This document shows positions 7,290 to 60,289 of a DNA stretch of 64,000 bases, in pieces. A model generated the notes under the pieces. That model did no database searches and was not told the DNA's origin. It was given only the letters and a program-made list of their open reading frames with translations. Every line of letters starts with the position of its first letter. The stretch's first letter is position 1. The stretch comes from an uncultured Pseudomonadota bacterium. GTDB lineage: Bacteria; Myxococcota_A; UBA796; SXON01. The position numbers were made by a program, and so were the translations under genes. The stretch lies in the NCBI GenBank assembly GCA_903921785.1, contig CAIXRH010000045.1:4366-68365 (forward strand), given 5' to 3'.

Positions 7290-7526
7290 ATGAAAAAAGT
7301 CGAGATCACCTACTGCACGAGTTGAGGGTACCTCCCTCGGGCCATCCGGGCGATGGGCACCCTGAGGGAGGAGCTGGACGTTGAAGCGACGCTGATCCCC
7401 GGGCACGGCGGGATCTTCACGGTGGCCGTCGACGGGGCCGTGGTGGCCCGCAAGACCTGGGATGGCTTCCCCGACACCGAGGAGATCGTCCGGGCGGTGG
7501 CCAAGGCGCTCGGTCCCGGGTTCTGA
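7290..7526 (+). CDS. selW: SelW/Rdx-family selenoprotein (78 aa) with in-frame TGA = Sec at 7323-7325
   Basis: Hand translation: GGAG at 7281-7284, ATG at 7290, then MKKVEITYCTS-U-GYLPRAIRAMGTLREELDVEATLIPGHGGIFTVAVDGAVVARKTWDGFPDTEEIVRAVAKALGPGF, stop at 7524-7526. This is the Rdx-fold signature: a beta1 strand ending in CxxU, then xxxRA, and GxFEV/TVxVDG...FP..EEI. The track has no plus-strand ORF here because of the TGA. Confidence 0.8.
7334..7368 (+). promoter_or_regulatory. candidate bacterial SECIS hairpin
   Basis: CCCTCGGGCCATC (7334-7346) pairs imperfectly with GATGGGCACCCTGAGGG (7352-7368) around the loop CGGGC (7347-7351). The stem starts 9 nt after the UGA and the G-containing apical loop lies about 24-28 nt downstream. 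That is within the usual bacterial SECIS geometry. Confidence 0.5.
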
Positions 7527-7527
7527 T

Positions 7528-7844
7528 ACGGTCCGTCCCTGATGAGGATCGTTCCCACCCACCGGAGCGAGTCCGTGCAGCAAGCAACAGCGGGCTTCCC
7601 GGCGTCACGCCAAAACCTTGTGCTTGTTCGCCGACGGTTCAGGGTGAGGTGACGGGCCCGGGAGTGGGCCATGCGGGTGACGTCACGGGCGAACCGGCCG
7701 AGCGCAGCGACGGCCGGGCGCCCGTGGCGGCAGGACCCAGCGCCAACCCTCACGTCCGCCGAGGCTACCGTTGCACATCTCGCGATGCCGGGAACCCCGC
7801 CCCCCGGCGCAGCGTCCTCGCCGGACGAGCCGTGATCACGGCCG
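7528..7844 (+). repeat. repeat family A, copy 1 (full length, about 317 nt)
   Basis: 7564-7844 aligns to the reverse complement of 44401-44684, and 7528-7704 aligns to 58561-58746. It contains the palindrome GTGACGTCAC (7677-7686) and long-range complementary arms at 7590-7609 and 7781-7800. It is intergenic, between selW and folE2. Confidence 0.85.
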
Positions 7845-7860
7845 ATGGGAATCAGTCACG

Positions 7861-7877
7861 AACATCTTGACGATGTT
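7861..7877. promoter_or_regulatory. inverted repeat AACATC-N5-GATGTT upstream of folE2 (candidate operator)
   Basis: A perfect 6-bp inverted repeat with a 5-bp spacer (TTGAC) lies in a locally AT-richer patch, flanked by direct GTCACG words. It ends 25 nt before the folE2 ATG. Confidence 0.25.
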
Positions 7878-7901
7878 GTCACGGGTCCTTAGCTCCCCGG
7901 C

Positions 7902-9032
7902 ATGAACTCCGTCCCGCTCCGCGAGCTGCTCCCCGACCACGCCAGCCACGCGGACGATCGGGGCGTGCCCATCGACCGCGTGGGGATCAAGGGGCTTCGC
8001 TGGCCGATCACGGTGTGGGACCGGGCGAACCGGGCGCAGCCCGTCGTGGCCGACATCACGGCAACGGTGGGCCTGCCGGCGGACGTGAAGGGCACCCACA
8101 TGTCGCGCTTCGTCGAGGTGCTCAACGGCGTTCGCGGCGAGCTCTCGCTGCATACGCTCCCCGATCTGTTGGCGCAGCTCCAGCGCCGCCTCGGCGCCCG
8201 AGACGTGCAGCTCGACGTACGTTTTCCCTACTTCATGGAGCGCTTCGCCCCGGTGAGCAAGGTCGCGTCGCTGATGGAGTACGGCGCCGTGTTCCACGCC
8301 ACGCTCTCGGGGACGGTGTTCGATTTTGTCCTCGAGGTTCGTGTTCCGGTCACGACGCTTTGCCCCTGTTCCAAGGCGGTGAGCGAACGCGGTGCCCACA
8401 ACCAGCGGTCCTGGGTCGACGTGTGGGTGCGGGGCCACGAGTTCTTGTGGATCGAGGACGTGGTGGAGGCCGTGGAGGCCTGCGCCAGCTCGCCGCTCTA
8501 CGCGCTGCTCAAGCGGGAGGACGAGAAGTACGTCACGGAGCATGCCTACGACCACCCACGTTTCGTAGAGGACCTCATCCGGGAGGTCACCCGCGCCCTG
8601 GAGCCCAAGGCGAAGTGGCTTCGGGTAAATGTGGAGAACCTGGAGAGCATCCACAACCACAGCGCCTGGGCCGAGCTGGAGTGGAATACGGAAACATCCG
8701 TAGTATTGGGGCAGGGGGGCGGAGCCCCCCCGCAACGCCCCCCCGAGGCCGCCGCGGCGCCGTCCGGGCTCGGGCCCTGGCTCCAGGCGAAGCGTCAGGC
8801 CTTCCACTGGTCACAGGCGCAGCTCGCGGCGCGGCTGGGGATGAGCGCCTCGCTCCTGAGCAAGATCGAGAGTGGGGAGCGCCACCTGAGCCCCGAGAAG
8901 TTCGCCGTCGTGGCAGACGTACTAGGTGAGTCTCCGGAGCGTGTATCACTTCGCGCGGGGGTCGTTCCGGCCGAGCTGCTCGCCCGCGTGCAGGCGGACC
9001 CAGAGGGGTTCTTGCGGTGGGCGGCGGGCTGA
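7902..9032 (+). CDS. folE2: GTP cyclohydrolase FolE2 (GCYH-IB) fused to a C-terminal XRE-type helix-turn-helix domain
   Basis: The first 265 aa or so carry FolE2/MptA blocks (VPIDRVGIKGLRWPI, KGTHMSRFVE, VPVTTLCPCSKAVSERGAHNQRS, YALLKREDEKYVTEHAYDHPRFVEDL). A Gly/Pro/Ala linker follows. The last 85 aa or so read as an HTH_3 domain (WSQAQLAARLGMSASLLSKIESGERHLSPEKFAVVADVLG). Confidence 0.85.
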   Translation: MNSVPLRELLPDHASHADDRGVPIDRVGIKGLRWPITVWDRANRAQPVVADITATVGLPADVKGTHMSRFVEVLNGVRGELSLHTLPDLLAQLQRRLGARDVQLDVRFPYFMERFAPVSKVASLMEYGAVFHATLSGTVFDFVLEVRVPVTTLCPCSKAVSERGAHNQRSWVDVWVRGHEFLWIEDVVEAVEACASSPLYALLKREDEKYVTEHAYDHPRFVEDLIREVTRALEPKAKWLRVNVENLESIHNHSAWAELEWNTETSVVLGQGGGAPPQRPPEAAAAPSGLGPWLQAKRQAFHWSQAQLAARLGMSASLLSKIESGERHLSPEKFAVVADVLGESPERVSLRAGVVPAELLARVQADPEGFLRWAAG

Positions 9033-19518: not shown

Positions 19519-19609
19519 CGCGGCGCCCCCACCGGAGCGCTGAGGGTGGCTCGAAGCGCGAGCGCGCGCTTGCCGTCGGTCGCTCGAAGCGCCGGGGGTG
19601 GGGATGCGC
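19519..19609 (+). repeat. repeat family C, copy 1
   Basis: It shares CGCGGCGCCCNCCACCGGAGCGCTGA...CTCGAAGCGCGA...GAAGCGCCGRGGGTGGGGATGCGC with 32316-32408. It contains the hairpin AAGCGCG-AGCG-CGCGCTT. Confidence 0.6.
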
Positions 19610-27638: not shown

Positions 27639-27705
27639 CGCGCCGACGCCGATGCCGGCTCGCGAGGGTGTAGTCGGGCTGGGAGGGGGAACCAACCTTA
27701 GGCCC
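27639..27705 (+). repeat. repeat family B, copy 1
   Basis: CGCGCCGACGCCGATGCCGGCTCGCGAGGGTGTAGTCGGGCTGGGAGGGGGAACCAACCTTAGGCCC. It starts 2 nt after the pip stop and is the most diverged of the five copies. Confidence 0.65.
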
Positions 27706-27717
27706 GCCCTCACCCCT

Positions 27718-32315: not shown

Positions 32316-32417
32316 CCGCGGCGCCCGCCACCGGAGCGCTGACCGCCTCTCGAAGCGCGACCGTGCGCTAGAAAACCGTGGATTGAAGCGCCGAGGGTGG
32401 GGATGCGCCCCACCCGT
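32316..32417 (+). repeat. repeat family C, copy 2
   Basis: It aligns with 19519-19609 and ends in a perfect hairpin GGGTGGGG-ATGCG-CCCCACCC (32397-32417). It lies between convergent genes. Confidence 0.6.
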
Positions 32418-40520: not shown

Positions 40521-41593
40521 AGCTCCTCTTCGTCGCGCGACGGTTCCCACCCGACGTGGTGAGCGGCACCGAGACGGTCTTCGCGCGGCTGCGCGAAGAG
40601 GCGCGGGCGGCCGGCCACGACGTCCACCTCGTCGCCGGCTTCCGTCGTGAGCGGGCGTACCTGCCGGCGGACGCCACCGCGGTGGACCTGCGCGGCAAGG
40701 GCGCCAGCGCGTGGGCGGCCATGGCGTTCGCGGCGGCGAAGGCGGCCCGCCGCTTCCGCCCCGACGTGGTGCTCAGCAACTCGATCGAGGTGCGGGTGCC
40801 GGGCGTGCCGACGGTCACGATCGTGCACGACCTGAACTTCGGGGGCGCGGGCGCGGGCCTGGGCGCGTTCGCGAAGCGGCAGTTCTACCTGCTGCAAGGT
40901 CGCGGACTGGCGCGAATCGTCGCAGTGAGCGAGGTCACTCGGCAGGCGCTGCTCGGCGCGGGCGTGCCAGCCGGGAAGGTCGTCGCCATCCCCAACGGGG
41001 TGGACCTCGCCCGGTTCGTGCCGGCGCCGCGGCCGGCGGACGGGAAGGTGCGGCTGGTGCAGGTGAGCCGGATCCTCCCGGGGAAGGGTCAACACTGCGC
41101 GCTCGACGCCCTCGGCCGCATGCGCCCGGACCAACGCCGCAACGTGCGCCTCGCGATCGTCGGCACCGTCGCCGACGCGGTGTACGCGGAGCAGCTGAGG
41201 GTCCAGGCGTGGAACCTCCCGGTGGACCTGCACTTCGACGTGCCGGACGTGGTGCCGCACTACCAGTCGGCGGACATCGCCCTGTTCCCCACGCGGATGC
41301 CCGAAGGGTTCGGCTACGCGGCGGTGGAGGCGATGGCGTGCGGGCTCCCGGTCGTCGGCTTCGCGGACCCGGCCGTGGCGGAAGCGACGGGCGGGCTCGC
41401 CGAGTTGGTCCCCCGGGACGACGTGCCCGCGCTCCGGGACGCGCTCTTGCGGCTCATCGCGGACCCCGCCGAGCGAGCGCGACGCGGCGCGGCAGGTCGG
41501 GCGTTCGTCGAGCGGTATCGGTGGGCGGAGACCTGGCGGCGGTATGAGGATTGCCTCCGGTCTTCAAAAGATGAGGCCAGGTTCAGCTCCTGA
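40517..41593 (+). CDS. GT4-family (GT-B) glycosyltransferase
   Basis: It begins MKLLFVARRFPPDVVSGTE and has the C-terminal E-x7-E region MPEGFGYAAVEAMACGLPVV. The GTG start overlaps the upstream stop (GTGA). Confidence 0.85.
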   Translation: MKLLFVARRFPPDVVSGTETVFARLREEARAAGHDVHLVAGFRRERAYLPADATAVDLRGKGASAWAAMAFAAAKAARRFRPDVVLSNSIEVRVPGVPTVTIVHDLNFGGAGAGLGAFAKRQFYLLQGRGLARIVAVSEVTRQALLGAGVPAGKVVAIPNGVDLARFVPAPRPADGKVRLVQVSRILPGKGQHCALDALGRMRPDQRRNVRLAIVGTVADAVYAEQLRVQAWNLPVDLHFDVPDVVPHYQSADIALFPTRMPEGFGYAAVEAMACGLPVVGFADPAVAEATGGLAELVPRDDVPALRDALLRLIADPAERARRGAAGRAFVERYRWAETWRRYEDCLRSSKDEARFSS

Positions 41594-41650
41594 GGGTGGG
41601 TTCACCTCCCGGCCCGGCCCCACCCTCGCGAGCCAGGACCGGCGTCGGCG
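41594..41650 (-). repeat. repeat family B, copy 2 (inverted)
   Basis: The reverse complement reads CGCCGACGCCGGTCCTGGCTCGCGAGGGTGGGGCCGGGCCGGGAGGTGAACCCACCC. It begins immediately after the GT4 stop codon. Confidence 0.7.
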
Positions 41651-44374: not shown

Positions 44375-44400
44375 CCGGTCCGGGCGGAGGGGCCATACCG

Positions 44401-44684
44401 ACCGGCCGTGATCACCGCTCGCCCGGCGAGGACGCGGCGCCGGGGGAGCGGGATTCCCGGCGTCGCGAGTTGCGCCACTGTTGCCTCGGCGAGCATGAGG
44501 GTTGGCGCTGGGTCCTGCCGCCACGAGCGCCCGGCCCTCGCTGCGCTCGGCCGGTTCGCCCGTGACGTCACACGCATGGCCCACTTCCGGGCCCGTCGCC
44601 TCACCCTGAACCGTCGGCGAACAACGGAAAGGTTTTCACGCGACGCCGGGAAGCCCGCTGTTGCTGGCTGCACGGGCTCGCTCC
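44401..44684 (-). repeat. repeat family A, copy 2 (inverted, long form)
   Basis: The reverse complement aligns with 7564-7844 along its whole length, including the GTGACGTCAC palindrome (44563-44572 region) and both 20-nt complementary arms. Confidence 0.85.
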
Positions 44685-44700
44685 GCGTCGCCGCTCGGGC

Positions 44701-44836
44701 GGAGGGGTCAGGCCGATCGTATTCGATTTCGGCGGGCACCTCCCCGCCGGAAGCCTGCGACGGCGGCATCCGGTCGCCGATCCGGGGTGAAAATGAAACG
44801 CGATCGGCCTGACCCCCTCGGTTGACCCCCTCGGTT
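44701..44836. repeat. 19-bp inverted repeat pair bracketing 81 nt, plus a perfect 13-bp tandem duplication
   Basis: GGAGGGGTCAGGCCGATCG (44701-44719) faces CGATCGGCCTGACCCCCTC (44801-44819), with 16 contiguous perfect pairs. GACCCCCTCGGTT is repeated in tandem at 44811-44823 and 44824-44836. Confidence 0.7.
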
Positions 44837-45646: not shown

Positions 45647-45900
45647 GACGCGGGGTGGGCCAGCCCGGCTTGCGGTGAACGATTCCAGCCACTTGGGTGA
45701 CGCCTGTTTGCGCAGCGCCCGGGCTGGCCCCCCGGACTCCGCCCCGGCGGCCACGACCGGGGGGCGTTGCGGGGGGCCCCCGGCCCCCCGCCCCAAGATC
45801 AACGGCTGGAAATCGCGGACCCTACGCGCCACCGGACCGCACGCCGACCGCGCGACCGCGCCGCCTGGATGCTATCGTCCACCTCGGTCCCGGAGCTCCG

Positions 45901-51867: not shown

Positions 51868-51966
51868 GGGTCGCAGGTAGCGCGGCGGCCGGGCCGGGGC
51901 GAGGGCGGGCGTCGGGCCGGGCGACCGCGGGTAGCGACGCACACGGTTCGCAGCTACAGTCGCCCT

Positions 51967-52833
51967 GTGCCGCCTCCGACGCCGATGACCACGCTCCGCC
52001 ACCCGCTGCCGTGGCTGGCCGCGGCGCTCATCGCCGGCAACGACTTCGTGCTCCGCGGGGTCGCGCCGGGGTGGCTCACCGGGAAGCTCTCCGACGTGGG
52101 CTGGCTGGTCGTCGTGCCGGTGCTCGCGGCCGCAGCGCTCTCCGGGCTCGGCGTCCATGCCCGCCGGGCCGAACGGGCGGCGCTCGCGGCGACGGCTGCG
52201 TTCTACGCGGTGCTGCAGCTCTGGCCGCCGCTTGGCGCCTGGTTCTCCGCGGCGCACGTGGCCGACGTGGGCGATCTCGTCGCGCTCCCGGCGCTCCTCC
52301 TCGCCGTCGTCGCCTGGCGCACGCCCGGATGGCGCCTCCCGGTTCCCGCCCTCCTCGCCGCCCCCGTCTTCGCCAGCGTGCTCCTGGCCGACGGCCTCAC
52401 GTCTCCGTCCGAGGGGAGCGCGCCCTGCGAGGCCACGCCCGTCTGGCCCACCGCTGCCCCGTTCCGCGTGGAGCTCGACGCCGCCTACGATCCCCAGGGC
52501 GACCGGTTCCGGCGTGGGCTCCACCTCGTGGACGGCGAGGGGAACGAGCTCGCCCTCGTGGTGGCGGACGACACCTGGCCCACCGCAGTCTGTGCACGTG
52601 AGGGGCTCGAGCCCAACACGACGTACTCCCTCGCCATCGGCCCCTGGGACGAAGGATCGGCGAACGACGCCCCGATCGACCACCCCGGCCTGGGCACGGT
52701 GACCTTCACCACCGACGACAGCGCAGGGGCGCCGGCCGACGACTCCGATGCCTGCTTCGCGCTATCGGAAGATTACGAGCTCTCCGAGGAGGACGAGGAT
52801 CTCTGCTGGTTCGCCCCGGGCGTGCCCGGGTGA
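51967..52833 (+). CDS. duplicated module gene A1: five-TM inner-membrane protein with periplasmic Ig-like domain and acidic Cys-containing tail
   Basis: The GTG at 51967 is conserved in the paralog. There are five predicted TM helices with positive loops ([15 protein letters not shown]) on one side. The soluble domain has an [13 protein letters not shown]-type Ig-like strand pattern. The tail reads [22 protein letters not shown]. Confidence 0.7.
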
Positions 52834-53666
52834 CCTTTTTCGTGCTCCCCGTGCTCCCGACGCTGGCCAGCCTCGCCTGGGCAGACGACCCGGCTCCGCC
52901 CAGCCCGCTCCCGCTCCCCGAGGACCCGGCGCTGCACGAAGAGCCAATCCTCAACCGCATCCGGTTCACGCCGCATGCGCGCCTCTCGTTCTCCGGGTTC
53001 CGTCTCCAGCTCCCGGCCGGCCGCCCGGCGCTCTCCGCGCGCCTCGCGCTCGTCGCCGACCCCATCGGACTCGGCATCGGCGAGCTCACCCTCCGCGGCC
53101 AGGCCGGGTGGACGTGGTTCGCGGTCGACGCCGAGGTGGTCGTCGCCGGTGCAGTGGCGGACGAATGGAGCCGGAAGGGGTTCGGGAACGCAAGGTTCAA
53201 CGCGGCGATCGTCTTCGGGCCCGCCGAGGCCACCAACACGCTCGGCGTTCAGGTGACGGTGCCTCGCCCGTGGTACGAAGGCGCCGACACGATCAGCTTC
53301 TGGGGGAGCGTGCCGGAGGCGACGATCGGCGCACCGGGCGCCTCGATCGTCTACTCCGGCACCACGGGCGCGCTCGGCTGGCATCTGCAGACGGGCCTGC
53401 GCGACGCCAGGAGCGGGAACTCCGCCGCGTTCACCCCCATTGACCTGGAGGCGATGATCGCCTACGAAGCGCCGCTCGTGCCGGGATGGGCGCTGGTCAC
53501 CGAGGCGGAGGCCGCCCTCGGCGCGAGCCCGTTCCAGCTCCGGGTGCTGGCCCGGGGCACGCCCGGCCGCGGCTGGACCGCGGACGTGGGCCTGGTCGCG
53601 CCGATCCCGTCGATCTTCACGGCGCCTTCACTGCAGGTGGTCTCCCAGGTGGCCCGGCGGTTCTGA
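52830..53666 (+). CDS. duplicated module gene B1: putative outer-membrane beta-barrel protein
   Basis: The GTG start overlaps the A1 stop (GTGA). It has the signal peptide [18 protein letters not shown] and an amphipathic strand pattern, and ends ...SLQVVSQVARRF. Confidence 0.7.
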   Translation: MTFFVLPVLPTLASLAWADDPAPPSPLPLPEDPALHEEPILNRIRFTPHARLSFSGFRLQLPAGRPALSARLALVADPIGLGIGELTLRGQAGWTWFAVDAEVVVAGAVADEWSRKGFGNARFNAAIVFGPAEATNTLGVQVTVPRPWYEGADTISFWGSVPEATIGAPGASIVYSGTTGALGWHLQTGLRDARSGNSAAFTPIDLEAMIAYEAPLVPGWALVTEAEAALGASPFQLRVLARGTPGRGWTADVGLVAPIPSIFTAPSLQVVSQVARRF

Positions 53667-53677
53667 CGGGGCGAGGC

Positions 53678-53744
53678 AGGGTTTCACGGTTGTTCCCCCT
53701 CCCGGCCCCCCTCCAACCTCGCGAGCCAGGACCGACGTCGGCGC
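53678..53744 (-). repeat. repeat family B, copy 3 (inverted)
   Basis: The reverse complement reads GGCGCCGACGTCGGTCCTGGCTCGCGAGGTTGGAGGGGGGCCGGGAGGGGGAACAACCGTGAAACCC. It lies 11 nt after the B1 stop, between the two duplicated modules. Confidence 0.75.
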
Positions 53745-53859
53745 CGGAGCCGGAGAACCCCCGGAACCGGCGGCGCCGCGGCCGCCGCGCCAACGGCTCC
53801 ATCCCCGGGTCGGGCGTCCCGCTATGGCGACAAGTCAGGTTCGCGGCTACAGTCGCCCT

Positions 53860-54723
53860 GTGCCGCCTCCGACGCCGATCACCGCGCTCCGCCACCCGCT
53901 GCCGTGGCTGGCCGCGGTGCTCATCGTGGGCAACGACTTCGTGCTCCGCGGGGTCGCGCCGGGGTGGCTCACCGGGAAGCTCGCCGACGTGGGCTGGCTG
54001 GTCGTCGTGCCGGTGCTCGCCGCCGCCGCGCTCTCCGGGCTCGGCGTCGGCGCCCGCCGGGCGGAGCGGGCGGCGCTCGTGGCGACGGCGGTGTTCTACA
54101 CGGCGCTGCAGCTCTGGCCGCCGCTGGGCGCGTGGTTCTCCGCGTCGCACGTAGCCGACTTGGGCGATCTCCTCGCGCTGCCAGCGCTCCTCCTGGCCGT
54201 CGTCGCCTGGCGCACGCCCCGACTCGCCCTGCCCGTGCCCGCGGCTCCCGCGTTGCCCGCCTTCACCGCCGTGCTCCTTGCGGATACGCCGGCTGAGCCG
54301 ATGGACGCGAGCTGGCCCTGCGAGGCGACGCCGACCTGGCCGACGGCCGCCCCGCTGCGCTTCGAGCTCGACGCGATCTACGACATCTACGGCGACCGTT
54401 TTCATCGCGGAGTCCACCTCGTGGACGAGGACGGCGTGGAGGTCCCGCTGGTGATCTCGGCCGACGCCTGGCCCGATGCGCTCTGCGCGAGAGACGGGCT
54501 GGAGCCCAACACCAGCTACACCCTCACCATCGGCCCCTGGAGCGAAGGGTCGGCGAACGACACCCCGATTGACCATCCGGGGCTTCCCGCGGTCACCTTC
54601 ACCACCGACGACAGCCCGGGGGAGCCGGCCGCGGACGCGGACGCCTGCGCGGCGCTGGCAGAGGACTTCCCACTTCCGGAGGAAGACGAGGAGCTCTGCG
54701 CGGAGCCCGAGGAAGCCGCTTGA
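53860..54723 (+). CDS. duplicated module gene A2 (paralog of A1)
   Basis: Track ORF 53824..54723. I prefer the GTG at 53860 because the upstream DNA (GGTTCGCRGCTACAGTCGCCCTGTGCCGCC) is conserved with the A1 start. Most residues are identical to A1 by eye, especially in the TM region. Confidence 0.7.
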   Translation: MPPPTPITALRHPLPWLAAVLIVGNDFVLRGVAPGWLTGKLADVGWLVVVPVLAAAALSGLGVGARRAERAALVATAVFYTALQLWPPLGAWFSASHVADLGDLLALPALLLAVVAWRTPRLALPVPAAPALPAFTAVLLADTPAEPMDASWPCEATPTWPTAAPLRFELDAIYDIYGDRFHRGVHLVDEDGVEVPLVISADAWPDALCARDGLEPNTSYTLTIGPWSEGSANDTPIDHPGLPAVTFTTDDSPGEPAADADACAALAEDFPLPEEDEELCAEPEEAA

Positions 54724-55562
54724 CGACGCTCTCGCCGCTCGGCTGGATGCTCGCTGGGGGAATGACCGTGGCCCGCGCCGACGAGCCCGCACCGCCCGGC
54801 CCGCTCCCGCTCCCCGACGATCCGGCGCTGCGCGAGGAGCCGGTCCTCAACCGGATCCGCTTCGTTCCCCACGCCCGGCTGTCGTTCTCGGGCTTCCGGC
54901 TCCAACTGCCCACCGGCCGCCCGGCGCTCTCCGCGCGCCTCGCGCTCGTGGCGGACCCCATCGGCCTCGGCATCGGCGAGCTGACCCTCCGCGGCCAGGC
55001 CGGCTGGACGTGGTTCGCCCTCGACGCCGAGGTCGTCGTCGCGGGGGCCGTGGCGGACGGCTGGAGTCGTAAGGGGCTCGGGAACGCGAAGCTCAACGCG
55101 GCGGTCGTCTTCGGGCCCGCCGCGGTCACCAACACCCTCGGCCTCCAGGTGACGTTGCCGAAGCCGGAGTACTCGGGGGCGGAGATGCTCAGCTTCTGGG
55201 GTACGGTTCCGGCGGCGACGGTGCGAGCAGGGGGGCTCGCGATCGCCTACACGGGCACCACCGGCGCGCTCGCGTGGCACCTCCAGACGGGGCTCTGGTA
55301 CTTCCCCATCGTCAACGGATCCGCGCTCAGCGCGGTGGACCTCGAGGCCATGGTCGCCTACGAGGCGCCGCTCGCGCCGGGCTGGGCGCTGGTCACCGAG
55401 GCGGAGGCCGCCCTCGGCGCCAGCCCGTTCCAGGTCCGCGTGCTGGCCCGGGGCACGCCCGGCCGCGGCTGGACCGCGGACGTGGGCCTGGTCGCCCCGA
55501 TCCCGTCGATCTTCACGGCGCCTTCGCTGCAGGTGGTGTCCCAGGTGGGCCGGCGGTTCTGA
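54720..55562 (+). CDS. duplicated module gene B2 (paralog of B1)
   Basis: The TTG start called by the track overlaps the A2 stop. Long stretches are identical to B1, e.g. the last 70 aa or so including APIPSIFTAPSLQVVSQVxRRF. Confidence 0.7.
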   Translation: MTTLSPLGWMLAGGMTVARADEPAPPGPLPLPDDPALREEPVLNRIRFVPHARLSFSGFRLQLPTGRPALSARLALVADPIGLGIGELTLRGQAGWTWFALDAEVVVAGAVADGWSRKGLGNAKLNAAVVFGPAAVTNTLGLQVTLPKPEYSGAEMLSFWGTVPAATVRAGGLAIAYTGTTGALAWHLQTGLWYFPIVNGSALSAVDLEAMVAYEAPLAPGWALVTEAEAALGASPFQVRVLARGTPGRGWTADVGLVAPIPSIFTAPSLQVVSQVGRRF

Positions 55563-57522: not shown

Positions 57523-57543
57523 CCGCCAGTGGCCGCCTGGCGG

Positions 57544-57611
57544 CGCGCCGACGCTGGTCCTGGCTCGCGACGATGGAGGAGGGCCGGGAGGGGGAACTAC
57601 CTTGAATCCCC
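57544..57611 (+). repeat. repeat family B, copy 4
   Basis: GCGCGCCGACGCTGGTCCTGGCTCGCGACGATGGAGGAGGGCCGGGAGGGGGAACTACCTTGAATCCCC. It lies between two convergent stop codons (57522 and 57611). Confidence 0.75.
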
Positions 57612-58534: not shown

Positions 58535-58560
58535 GGCGTGAAGCAGGCTTAGCCGGTGAA

Positions 58561-58746
58561 ACGGTCTGACCCTGATGAAGATCGTTCGCTCGTCGCGGCG
58601 GCGCTGAGCGAGTCCGTGCAGCAAGCATCGGCGGGCTTCCCGGCGTAGCGCGAAAACCTTGTCCTCGTTCGCCGACGGTTCAGAGTGAGGTGACGGGCCC
58701 GGAAGTGGGCCATGCGTGTGACGTCACGGGCGAACCGGGCGAGCGG
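58561..58746 (+). repeat. repeat family A, copy 3 (short form, 5' part only)
   Basis: It aligns with 7528-7704 and includes GAGCGAGTCCGTGCAGCAAGCA and GTGACGTCACGGGCGAACCGG. Similarity stops where the long copies continue. It lies in the divergent esterase/P450 intergenic region. Confidence 0.8.
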
Positions 58747-58831
58747 AAATCAGGGGCAGACCGTACGAGGCATCCGGCGCACGGCCACGCCGCCCCTCCC
58801 CCGAATTAGGGCCCCCCCCACGAGAGGACCC

Positions 58832-60160: not shown

Positions 60161-60206
60161 GGGAAACCGCCGACGGTGGCTACCGGGCGCTCCCCGCGCG
60201 TGGACC

Positions 60207-60289
60207 GGCGCCGACGCCGGTCATGGCTGGCCCACTTCGGGCGCGCTCGGGTGGAGAAGGGCCGGGAGAGGGAACTACCTTGAATCCCC
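60207..60289 (+). repeat. repeat family B, copy 5 (with about 20-nt internal insertion)
   Basis: GGCGCCGACGCCGGTCATGGCTGG...GGTGGAGAAGGGCCGGGAGAGGGAACTACCTTGAATCCCC. It contains the TAG stop (60277-60275, minus strand) of the GH25 gene. Confidence 0.7.

What the first reader, a model, noticed from the sequence alone, without database searches (positions are those of the whole stretch)
7528..7844. Repeat family A: long GC-rich, internally palindromic intergenic element present three times in 64 kb
Seen directly: 7564-7844 aligns along its whole length, with scattered substitutions only, to the reverse complement of 44401-44684. 7528-7704 aligns to 58561-58746. All three share a core of about 140 nt: GAGCGAGTCCGTGCAGCAAGCA..GCGGGCTTCCCGGCGT..GAAAACCTT..GTTCGCCGACGGTTCAGRGTGAGGYGACGGGCCCGGRAGTGGGCCATGCGKGTGACGTCACGGGCGAACCGG. 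The core includes the perfect palindrome GTGACGTCAC (7677-7686). In the two long copies a 20-nt arm (7590-7609) is complementary to 7781-7800, about 170 nt downstream. Copy 1 has 18/20 pairs including one G-T, and copy 2 has 19/20. GTTCGCC (7626-7632) / GGCGAAC (7688-7694) and a CGGCCG-N10-CGGCCG hairpin (7695-7716) nest inside, so the unit can fold into one long multi-stem structure. Every reading frame across it is Arg/Pro/Gly junk, and differences between copies ignore codon phase, so it is not coding. No transposase, reverse transcriptase or Cas gene adjoins any copy. It could be a MITE-like non-autonomous element, a family of structured sRNAs or cis-leaders, or a protein-binding intergenic repeat. 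Copies 1 and 3 are upstream of and co-oriented with folE2-HTH and a P450. I cannot match it to any RNA family I know.
Basis: seen in the sequence. Interest (0 to 1): 0.7.

Follow-up and report, generated by a model that had tools for sequence, protein, structure and literature searches.

The report
New miniature transposon (MITE) family
The three GC-rich repeats are copies of a small mobile DNA element with no gene of its own (a MITE), scattered through the genome of an uncultured freshwater bacterium, often right next to gene stop codons; this is a new family of a well-known kind, not a new RNA.

Summary
The window holds three copies: c1 7527-7851 (+), c2 44396-44721 (-) and c3 58560-58765 (+), which is a short form. 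I recovered about 22 more copies from metagenomes.

The aligned copies have defined ends with terminal inverted repeats (TACGGTCYG..CCTGAT). They are flanked by T-[C/G]-A on both sides, probably a 3-bp target duplication. Long (~325 bp) and short (~206 bp) forms both keep the two ends. There is no ORF. Neighbouring genes are unrelated, copies lie in both orientations, and assembly contigs break inside the element. A related strain has an empty site exactly where c3 sits.

No Rfam family matches. No transposase, reverse transcriptase or Cas gene lies within 10 kb of any copy. The best explanation is a non-autonomous DNA transposon (MITE) moved in trans by a transposase I could not identify.

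Two features go beyond the ordinary:
- The flanking triplet is often the TGA stop codon of the adjacent gene.
- A 49-nt central hairpin stays fully paired in all 17 copies examined, with compensatory changes, while the other helices decay.

Verdict: a new member of a known kind, of modest interest. The cis-leader/sRNA option is not.

The parts
7527..7851 (+). Copy 1, long form (325 bp), between the Rdx-like gene and folE2-HTH
   Evidence: Profile HMM hit over model positions 1-325, E=1.9e-88. Ends defined by the alignment of 25 copies.
7524..7526 (+). Left flanking triplet TGA of copy 1. It is also the stop codon of the Rdx-like gene.
   Evidence: The called gene ends at 7526.
7852..7854 (+). 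Right flanking triplet TCA of copy 1 (discordant with the left TGA)
7527..7547 (+). Left terminal inverted repeat of copy 1 (TACGGTCCGTCCCTGATGAGG)
   Evidence: Conserved at the left end of about 17 copies. Matches the reverse complement of the right end at about 16/21 positions in the consensus (main-type) copies and 16-17/17 in the variant subfamily.
7528..7552 (+). Left-terminal hairpin ACGGTCC-N11-GGATCGT. Copy 3 has the compensated version ACGGTCT...AGATCGT.
   Evidence: Read directly
7590..7609 (+). 5' arm of the 20-nt long-range inverted repeat
   Evidence: Pairs with 7781-7800.
7781..7800 (+). 3' arm of the 20-nt long-range inverted repeat
7656..7671 (+). 16-nt mini-hairpin insert GCCCGGGAGTGGGCCA. 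It is present in this genome's copies and absent from most metagenome copies.
7681..7729 (+). Central hairpin (16 pairs plus a 2-pair cap), the only helix under evident pairing constraint
   Evidence: 100% of cells paired in 17 copies, 4 pairs with compensatory changes. 28 deviating cells, none broken.
7831..7851 (+). Right terminal inverted repeat of copy 1 (CGTGATCACGGCCGATGGGAA)
44396..44721 (-). Copy 2, long form, antisense to both flanking genes. Its left end is rearranged.
   Evidence: HMM positions 18-323, E=1.4e-86. Local repeats. Gene table.
58560..58765 (+). Copy 3, short form (206 bp) with both termini, in the divergent hydrolase/P450 intergenic region. It is absent in a related strain.
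   Evidence: Empty site in L057.
58557..58559 (+). Left flanking triplet TGA of copy 3
58766..58768 (+). Right flanking triplet CGA of copy 3, a degenerate copy of TGA

Best explanation
[quoted passage not shown] Each copy is a 206-388 bp piece of non-coding DNA with no gene of its own. It is bounded by about 17-21 bp terminal inverted repeats (consensus TACGGTCYGNNCCTGAT ... ATCAGG..ACCGTA, or a more degenerate right end).

**Inferred mechanism.** A transposase encoded elsewhere in the genome binds the two ends and cuts and pastes the element into T-[C/G]-A sites, duplicating those 3 bp. In a genome of 72% G+C, harmless TGA/TCA triplets are largely stop codons. Surviving insertions therefore pile up immediately after genes and between convergent genes, and the duplicated TGA keeps the gene's stop.

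**Variants.** Internal deletion between CGAGCG repeats gave a short subfamily. A 16-nt mini-hairpin was gained in this genome's lineage and amplified fivefold in one copy.

**Shown:** ends, inverted repeats, dispersal, lack of coding capacity, filled/empty polymorphism, and the stop-codon association.

**Inferred:** the cut-and-paste chemistry, the 3-bp duplication, and the identity of the helper transposase (an IS5/IS1031-like guess).

**Central hairpin.** The 49-nt central hairpin is kept paired by selection. I infer it is needed either for mobilisation or as an RNA hairpin in read-through transcripts.
For: - **Copies and ends.** About 25 copies from the window, the same genome in other assemblies (L035) and three JGI metagenomes align end to end. 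They share left and right termini that are inverted repeats of each other.
- **Flanking triplets.** T-S-A flanks most ends. In 5 of 11 complete copies the two triplets are identical (TGA/TGA or TCA/TCA).
- **Filled/empty polymorphism.** A related strain (L057) has a 92-bp hydrolase-P450 spacer with no element. The break points coincide with the termini of c3, and the length difference fits the element plus 3 bp.
- **Assembly behaviour.** Contigs from independent assemblies end inside the element, as expected of a dispersed repeat.
- **Neighbours.** Flanking genes are unrelated housekeeping genes. No transposase, reverse transcriptase or Cas gene lies within 10 kb of any window copy, or among the 20 flanking ORFs scanned from the JGI loci.
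- **No coding capacity.** Frames are broken by stops and by 1-, 8-, 15- and 16-nt indels between copies.
- **Stop codons.** The flank triplet is the stop codon of the adjacent gene at 6 independent sites and abuts a TAG stop at 2 more.
- **Short forms.** c3 and probably L048 are short forms. c3 retains both termini; L048 retains its right terminus, and its left end is lost at the contig end.
- **No RNA family.** Rfam gives no match even at E<=10.
- **Age.** Pairwise identity is 76-94% with recognisable subfamilies.
- **Definition.** The features fit the published prokaryotic MITE definition: 50-800 bp, terminal inverted repeats of at least 10-15 bp, target duplication of 2-10 bp, no transposase (PMC11602168).
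Against: - No autonomous partner element with the same ends was found. There are none in the window or in any fetched locus, and no similar ends occur in 72,556 plasmid records.
- The 3-bp duplication is not proven. Concordance of 5/11 is only slightly above the roughly 3 expected from the flank composition. Two copies (c1, L049) have TGA on one side and TCA on the other. The empty site reads TGG, not TGA.
- The right terminal repeat of the main subfamily matches the left one at only about 16 of 21 positions.
- G-T but not A-C mismatches are tolerated (43 against 5 cells), and the + strand folds better in 9 of 12 copies. This hints at a single-stranded role that a plain double-strand cut-and-paste model does not need.
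Confidence: 0.82

Rival explanations
1. The element moves as single-stranded DNA through an HUH/Y1 enzyme, either as a REP/REPIN-type element served by a RAYT or as a palindrome-associated derivative of an IS200/IS605 element. On this view the terminal and central hairpins on one strand, not the inverted repeats, are what the enzyme recognises.
For: - The left end forms a hairpin with a compensatory change between copies.
- The central hairpin is strictly maintained with compensatory changes, and G-T is tolerated far more than A-C.
- The + strand is more stable in 9 of 12 copies.
- The location is extragenic, at gene 3' ends and between convergent genes, as is typical for REPs.
- The T-S-A on the left could be a left-flank target of the IS200/IS605 type.
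Against: - The variant subfamily has near-perfect 16-17-nt terminal inverted repeats, which IS200/IS605 derivatives lack.
- The right end has no hairpin equivalent to the left one.
- T-S-A is found on both sides and is often identical on the two sides.
- At 206-388 bp the element is several times longer than a REP or REPIN. No GTAG/CTAC motif occurs at the ends.
- No HUH gene appears in any gene table.
Confidence: 0.07
2. It is a family of structured small RNAs or cis-regulatory leaders. Each copy would be transcribed on its + strand and act on the downstream gene, for example folE2-HTH or the P450.
For: - Copies 1 and 3 are upstream of and co-oriented with a gene.
- The + strand of c1 folds somewhat better than shuffles (z=-1.95) whereas the - strand does not (z=-0.14).
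- The central hairpin covaries.
Against: - There is no Rfam match at E<=10.
- Copy 2 is antisense to both neighbours.
- In the wider set most copies abut the 3' ends of genes, in either orientation, next to unrelated functions.
- The P450 gene exists without the element in a related strain.
- No promoter-like or intrinsic-terminator-like site lies in or around c1.
- Helices other than the central one decay as expected without constraint.
Confidence: 0.04
3. The copies are leftover fragments (joined ends or solo ends) of a known, larger insertion sequence rather than a self-standing MITE family. They would be dead relics produced by repeated internal deletion of full-length copies.
For: Both termini are kept while the interior varies through deletions, a 16-nt insert and tandem amplification. 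A solo terminal-repeat-like sequence lies 70 nt from copy 2.
Against: - About 20 independent copies share the same 300-bp interior at 76-94% identity. This means the short unit itself was copied; it did not arise repeatedly by deletion.
- No full-length relative exists in about 190 kb of held sequence from this lineage.
- Plasmid records show no similarity.
Confidence: 0.05

Closest known systems
Correia elements (Neisseria MITEs)
   Same: Both are small and non-coding. Both have terminal inverted repeats of about 20-26 bp, many intergenic copies, and long and short forms that differ by an internal deletion. The whole unit folds back on itself, so transcripts that contain it form a long hairpin (for Correia, RNase III cleavage at the repeats is described in PMC10969869).
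   Different: Correia elements are 100-155 bp and AT-richer, duplicate TA, and carry IHF sites and promoters. This family is 206-388 bp and about 72% G+C, is flanked by T-S-A, has no detectable promoter, and shares no sequence with them. RNA processing was not tested here.
IS5-family (IS1031-group) insertion sequences and their MITE derivatives; the eukaryotic parallel is Tourist MITEs of PIF/Harbinger transposons
   Same: Insertion into a three-nucleotide site is described as a common feature of the IS1031 group (PMC2516522). From my own knowledge, the site is T-N-A and is duplicated. That matches the T-[C/G]-A triplets here.
   Different: No partner IS was found. The termini could not be compared with ISfinder entries. 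The duplication itself is only probable. Assignment to this family is a guess.
REP / BIME / REPIN extragenic palindromes and ERIC elements
   Same: These are GC-rich extragenic palindromes that accumulate after genes and between convergent genes. The hairpin is maintained. ERIC at gene 3' ends affects transcript levels (PMC10969869).
   Different: REPs are 20-40 nt units without terminal inverted repeats or target duplication and depend on a RAYT gene. The present unit is about 10 times longer and has distinct ends. The 16-nt mini-hairpin inside it is the more REP-like object.
IS200/IS605-derived palindrome-associated transposable elements
   Same: Structured ends and strand asymmetry of pairing.
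   Different: Those elements have no terminal inverted repeats and make no target duplication. Both features are present or probable here.

Membership tests
Prokaryotic MITE | Small size (50-800 bp) and no transposase or other ORF | tested here: met
   Copies are 206-388 bp. All frames are interrupted by stops or by indels between copies. Definition from PMC11602168.
Prokaryotic MITE | Terminal inverted repeats of at least 10-15 bp | tested here: met
   In the variant subfamily and c3 the ends match at 15-17 of 16-17 positions. In the main subfamily they match at about 16/21.
Prokaryotic MITE | Target-site duplication of 2-10 bp | tested here: inconclusive
   T-S-A lies on both sides of most copies and is identical on both sides in 5/11, where about 3 would be expected from the flank composition. 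The empty-site length fits the element plus 3 bp, but the triplet there reads TGG.
Prokaryotic MITE | Many dispersed copies in unrelated contexts, both orientations | tested here: met
   3 copies in 64 kb, 1 in L035, and 21 matches on 20 metagenome contigs. Neighbours are unrelated.
Prokaryotic MITE | Evidence of mobility (presence/absence at orthologous sites) | tested here: met
   c3 is absent from strain L057, with break points at the termini. c1 is present in all strains seen.
Prokaryotic MITE | A cognate autonomous element with matching termini in the same or related genomes | not testable with these tools
   None in the held sequence or in plasmid records. The complete genome and ISfinder could not be searched.
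IS5 family, IS1031 group (as source of the helper transposase) | 3-bp target (T-N-A) and matching inverted-repeat sequence | tested here: inconclusive
   The triplet pattern fits (PMC2516522). The terminal sequence could not be compared with known members.
Any Rfam RNA family (riboswitch, sRNA, ribozyme, retron or omega RNA) | Covariance-model match | tested here: not met
   0 matches at gathering score in the whole window and 0 at E<=10 over 7450-7950.
Hammerhead ribozyme (prompted by CUGAUGA in the left end) | Conserved CUGANGA...GAAA core with stems I-III | tested here: not met
   The motif varies between copies (CTGAACT, CGGATGA, CCGATGC). No Rfam hit.
REP/REPIN (RAYT-mobilised) | Unit of 20-40 nt imperfect palindromes with a conserved GTAG-type tetranucleotide; no inverted termini and no duplication | tested here: not met
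   The unit is over 200 bp with distinct inverted termini and no GTAG at the ends. Presence of a RAYT gene could not be tested.
IS200/IS605-derived palindromic element | No terminal inverted repeats; similar sub-terminal hairpins at both ends on one strand; conserved target on the left flank only | tested here: not met
   Inverted termini are present. The right end lacks a hairpin like the left one. T-S-A occurs on both flanks.
Retron non-coding RNA | Adjacent reverse-transcriptase gene | tested here: not met
   No reverse-transcriptase domain within 10 kb of any copy.

The most novel reading that the evidence does not exclude
The family may be more than a passive MITE. Its 49-nt central hairpin with the conserved loop GAGCGNAGCGA could be a functional single-stranded module. 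It might be an RNA hairpin that stop-codon-directed insertion delivers to the 3' ends of genes, acting as a barrier, stabiliser or processing site between convergent genes. Alternatively it might be a DNA hairpin that an unidentified, possibly non-DDE, enzyme needs to move the element. In either case selection acts on the structure of one strand, which is unusual for a bacterial MITE interior.
Probability: 0.2. Interest if true: 0.55.

Novelty: new member of a known kind. Interest (0 to 1): 0.3.

Why it matters
For annotation, these 200-390 bp blocks should be masked as mobile repeats. They should not be reported as candidate riboswitches or sRNAs.

They break short-read assemblies of this lineage. 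They may also mediate rearrangements: one copy has different right-hand neighbours in two populations.

Biologically, the family shows how a transposon survives in a very GC-rich, gene-dense genome by landing on T-S-A triplets that are mostly stop codons. It also offers a small, testable case of structural selection inside a MITE. The lineage is uncultured, so this is one of its first described mobile elements.

Tried and rejected
- **Known RNA family.** Rfam scans of the whole window and a sensitive scan of c1 found nothing.
- **Genome-contig scan.** The scan with GTGACGTCACGGGCGAAC returned 30 loci. BLAST of c1 against them matched nothing beyond 20-33 nt around the probe, and the three I read are coding sequence.
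- **Viral-contig scan.** 0 hits.
- **Protein search with translations of the element.** The aim was to catch spurious ORF calls on other copies. It gave only one (P0001 -> L035).
- **Hammerhead ribozyme** (CUGAUGA in the left end). The motif is not conserved.
- **GTTCGCC/GGCGAAC stem.** It is not in the consensus fold and is missing from one subfamily.
- **Duplications longer than 3 bp, or IS3-type TG...CA ends with an outer duplication.** The flanks do not match.
- **Tn3-like ends** (shared GGTCTGAC). There is no GGGG terminus and no 5-bp duplication.
- **Helper IS.** A fuzzy search for solo or paired termini around a transposase in all held DNA, and BLAST of the element and of its 40-nt end against plasmids, gave nothing useful.
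- **Other strains.**
  - Two P450 variants have no DNA on file. Their gene tables imply a filled site.
  - The strain that is empty at c3 is filled at c1.
- **Organism name.** The sample accessions appear in no paper. The best named RsgA relative, at 64% identity, is 'Deltaproteobacteria bacterium'.
- **Relatives.** Two relatives with 74-80% RsgA identity hold no copy in 35 kb. That is too little sequence to call the family lineage-restricted.

Full report
**1. The observation**

The three repeats are real and far beyond chance.
- 7563-7805 matches the reverse complement of 44443-44685 over 243 nt at 90%. The match continues in 7790-7852 / 44395-44457.
- 7565-7704 matches 58606-58745 at 92%.
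- A 19-nt core probe hits only these three places; 0.38 hits are expected by chance.
- The palindrome at 7677-7686, the 20-nt long-range arms and the CGGCCG hairpin are all as described.
- A profile HMM built later from 20-odd copies finds no further copy in the window.

**2. Getting more copies**

Rfam gives nothing, either at gathering score over the window or at E<=10 over 7450-7950.

A species-representative genome scan with an 18-mer from the core returned only chance hits. The lineage is therefore not among those genomes, at least not with that word.

An exact look-up of the folE2-HTH protein showed the same locus in several ENA and Logan metagenome assemblies. Three Logan contigs start inside the element, which is the signature of a dispersed repeat.

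Searching the protein database with conceptual translations of the element caught one spurious ORF call. It led to a fourth copy in the same organism (L035).

A JGI metagenome scan with GTTCGCCGACGGTTCAGNGTGAGG returned 21 matches on 20 contigs from three samples. Many sit at contig ends.

**3. Anatomy from the alignment**

*Ends.*
- The left end is T[G/C]A | TACGGTCCGTGCCTGATGAGGATCGTTCG...
- The main right end is ...GAGCGGTGATCACGGCCGGTCGGTA | T[C/G]A.
- A variant right end is ...GAGCGGAAATCAGGGTCAAACCGTA | TCA.
- The variant right end is the near-perfect reverse complement of the variant left end TACGGTCTGACCCTGAT.
- The main pair matches at about 16/21.
- These are terminal inverted repeats.

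*Coordinates.* In window coordinates the copies are c1 7527-7851 (+), c2 44396-44721 (-) and c3 58560-58765 (+).

*Short form.* Copy 3 is not truncated. It has both termini and lacks the interior between two CGAGCG repeats. L048 is probably the same kind of short form with the main right end, but its left end is lost at the contig end.

*Other variation.* There is an 8-nt deletion in c1/L055 and a 15-nt deletion in L035. A 16-nt insert GCCCGGAAGTGGGCCA is found only in this genome's lineage and occurs five times in tandem in L035.

*No coding capacity.* Every frame is broken by stops or by these indels.

*Divergence.* Pairwise identity is 76-94% (median 87%) with clear subfamilies.

**4. Mobility**

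The P450 protein cluster contains a variant from another strain (L057).
- In that strain the hydrolase-P450 spacer is 92 bp instead of 297 bp.
- It reads GCCGGTG-GC-GCATCC, where the window has GCCGG-TGA-[206 bp]-CGA-GGCATCC.
- The break points are the termini of c3, and the lengths fit the element plus 3 bp.

Copy 1 is older. It is present in every strain seen (L056, L058) and in the JGI population (L055).

**5. Flanks and target**

Most left and right flanks are T-S-A. This triplet has a frequency of roughly 1.4% in a genome of 72% G+C.

Among 11 complete copies:
- 5 have identical triplets on both sides (TGA/TGA three times, TCA/TCA twice);
- 2 have TGA on the left and TCA on the right;
- none has the reverse arrangement.

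Given the flank composition, about 3 concordant pairs would be expected. Concordance alone is therefore not significant.

The central base flips between G and C far more often than the 7% per-site divergence would allow if the triplet were part of the element. Together with the empty-site length, I read this as a probable 3-bp duplication of a T-S-A target.

Insertion into three nucleotides is described as typical of the IS1031 group of the IS5 family (PMC2516522). From my own knowledge those targets are T-N-A. This is a lead, not an assignment.

**6. Where the copies sit**

I used ORFs with strong third-position G+C as gene proxies.
- The left TGA is the stop codon of the upstream gene in c1/L055, L043 and L049.
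- The right TCA is the stop codon (TGA on the other strand) of a convergent downstream gene in L040, L042 and L052.
- A TAG stop abuts the triplet in L039b and L043.
- L043 is wedged exactly between two convergent genes.

Neighbouring genes include a leucyl aminopeptidase, gamma-glutamyltranspeptidase, aldo-keto reductase, CoA transferase, EAL protein, Lgt, TrmD, an ABC-F protein and a histidine kinase. They have nothing in common, and none is a transposase.

Within 10 kb of the three window copies there is no transposase, reverse transcriptase or Cas domain.

Copy 2 is antisense to both of its neighbours. This pattern argues against a cis-regulatory leader. It fits a transposon whose tolerated landing sites in a dense, GC-rich genome are mostly stop codons, with the duplicated TGA preserving the stop.

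**7. Structure**

The consensus fold is one long imperfect fold-back. The 20-nt arms and several shorter helices enclose a central hairpin.

Counting pairs on 17 copies gives the following.
- The central helix (c1 7681-7699 with 7712-7729) is paired in 100% of cells.
- Four of its pairs have changes on both sides. These come from a four-copy subfamily whose stem sequence differs at many positions, plus an independent G-C to C-G swap in L045.
- Of 28 cells in that helix that depart from the majority, none is unpaired. In the other helices 13 of 24 are broken.
- Paired columns of the central helix vary at 7% and unpaired columns at 12%.
- G-T mismatches outnumber A-C by 43 to 5 cells, at 9 against 3 positions. 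The structure was predicted on this strand, which inflates that contrast.
- The + strand has the lower folding energy in 9 of 12 copies.
- For c1 the z-scores are -1.95 (+) and -0.14 (-).

So the central hairpin is under real pairing constraint, probably as a single strand. The rest of the fold-back looks inherited rather than selected.

There is no promoter-like or intrinsic-terminator-like site.

**8. Interpretation**

The defining features of a prokaryotic MITE (PMC11602168) are met for size, lack of ORF, inverted termini, dispersal and mobility. The target duplication is probable. The partner transposase is unknown.

The closest described analogue in behaviour is the Correia element: long and short forms, a fold-back, and effects through RNA structure (PMC10969869). 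There is no sequence relationship, and the target differs.

Rivals:
- A single-strand (HUH) mobilised element is kept at low probability because of the strand asymmetry.
- A structured sRNA or leader family is contradicted by context and polymorphism.
- Relics of a larger IS are contradicted by about 20 copies sharing the same interior.

**9. Host**

The window has 71.8% G+C. It carries many Ser/Thr kinases and a che cluster; a sigma-54 activator and an outer-membrane efflux gene lie in L035, from the same organism. The best named RsgA relative is a 'Deltaproteobacteria bacterium' MAG at 64% identity. I infer an uncultured deltaproteobacterium-like (probably Myxococcota-type) freshwater organism. 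This is inference, not a placement.

**10. Verdict**

This is a previously undescribed MITE family, a new member of a known kind. The RNA-leader option is not supported. Interest is modest and rests on the stop-codon association and the constrained central hairpin.

Noticed in passing
window 7656-7671, 44577-44592, 58697-58712, 60230-60244; L035:10240-10317; L044:403-415; L049:1873-1885: A 15-16-nt mini-hairpin, GCCCG(G)AAGTGGGCCA, sits inside all MITE copies of this genome's lineage but is absent from most metagenome copies. It is amplified to five tandem units in L035. The same 15 nt is also inserted in two copies of an unrelated repeat family (window 60230 and L049), while four other copies of that family lack it. 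It behaves like a tiny mobile or slippage-prone palindrome.
   Followed up: partly
window 27639-27716, 41589-41650, 53668-53747, 57544-57610, 60205-60288; L049:1830-1930: A second repeat family of about 70-85 nt (core CGCCGACGCYGGTCCTGGCTCGCGA..GGGCCGGGAGGGGGAAC). At least two copies fill the gap between convergent gene ends (57523-57610, 60161-60274). In L049 the MITE appears to be inserted at a TGA at the end of one such copy.
   Followed up: partly
window 44381-44404 / 44696-44719; 44704-44729 / 44791-44816; 44810-44835: The left end of copy 2 is rearranged. A 24-nt direct repeat (83%) joins its right end plus flank to its left-end region. A 26-nt inverted repeat (85%) places a second, outward-facing copy of the left terminus about 70 nt away. 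A 13-nt unit, TGACCCCCTCGGT, is tandemly duplicated next to it. No explanation was found.
   Followed up: partly
L055:263-578 versus window 7527-7851 and L042:1933-2165: L055 shares copy 1's left flank (the Rdx-like gene) but has the right flank of L042 (a convergent aldo-keto reductase) instead of folE2-HTH. Either the genome rearranged by recombination between MITE copies, or the metagenome assembly is chimeric across the repeat.
   Followed up: partly
L039:1728-2051 and 2542-2763: Two MITE copies in the same orientation, about 490 bp apart, bracket a short gene-sized segment like a composite element. The right flank TCA of the upstream copy looks like the stop codon of a small convergent ORF.
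   Followed up: no
window 19526-19609 and 32325-32408: An 84-nt direct repeat (79% identity) with internal CTCGAAGCGC motifs, possibly a third intergenic repeat family.
   Followed up: no
window 51913-55070: A tandem duplication with a period of about 1893-1896 nt (75-89% identity). It corresponds to two adjacent pairs of paralogous genes without Pfam hits.
   Followed up: no
window 7902-9032 and 7856-7885: folE2 (GTP cyclohydrolase I type 2) is fused to a C-terminal HTH_3 domain through a Gly/Pro/Ala-rich linker. Just upstream, outside the MITE, lies an imperfect palindrome (GTCACGAACATCTTGACGATGTTGTCAC) that could be an operator for that HTH.
   Followed up: no
window 8706-8762 and 45740-45796: A 57-nt G/C-run inverted pair (79%). 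The first arm lies in the low-complexity linker coding region of folE2-HTH, so this is probably compositional.
   Followed up: no
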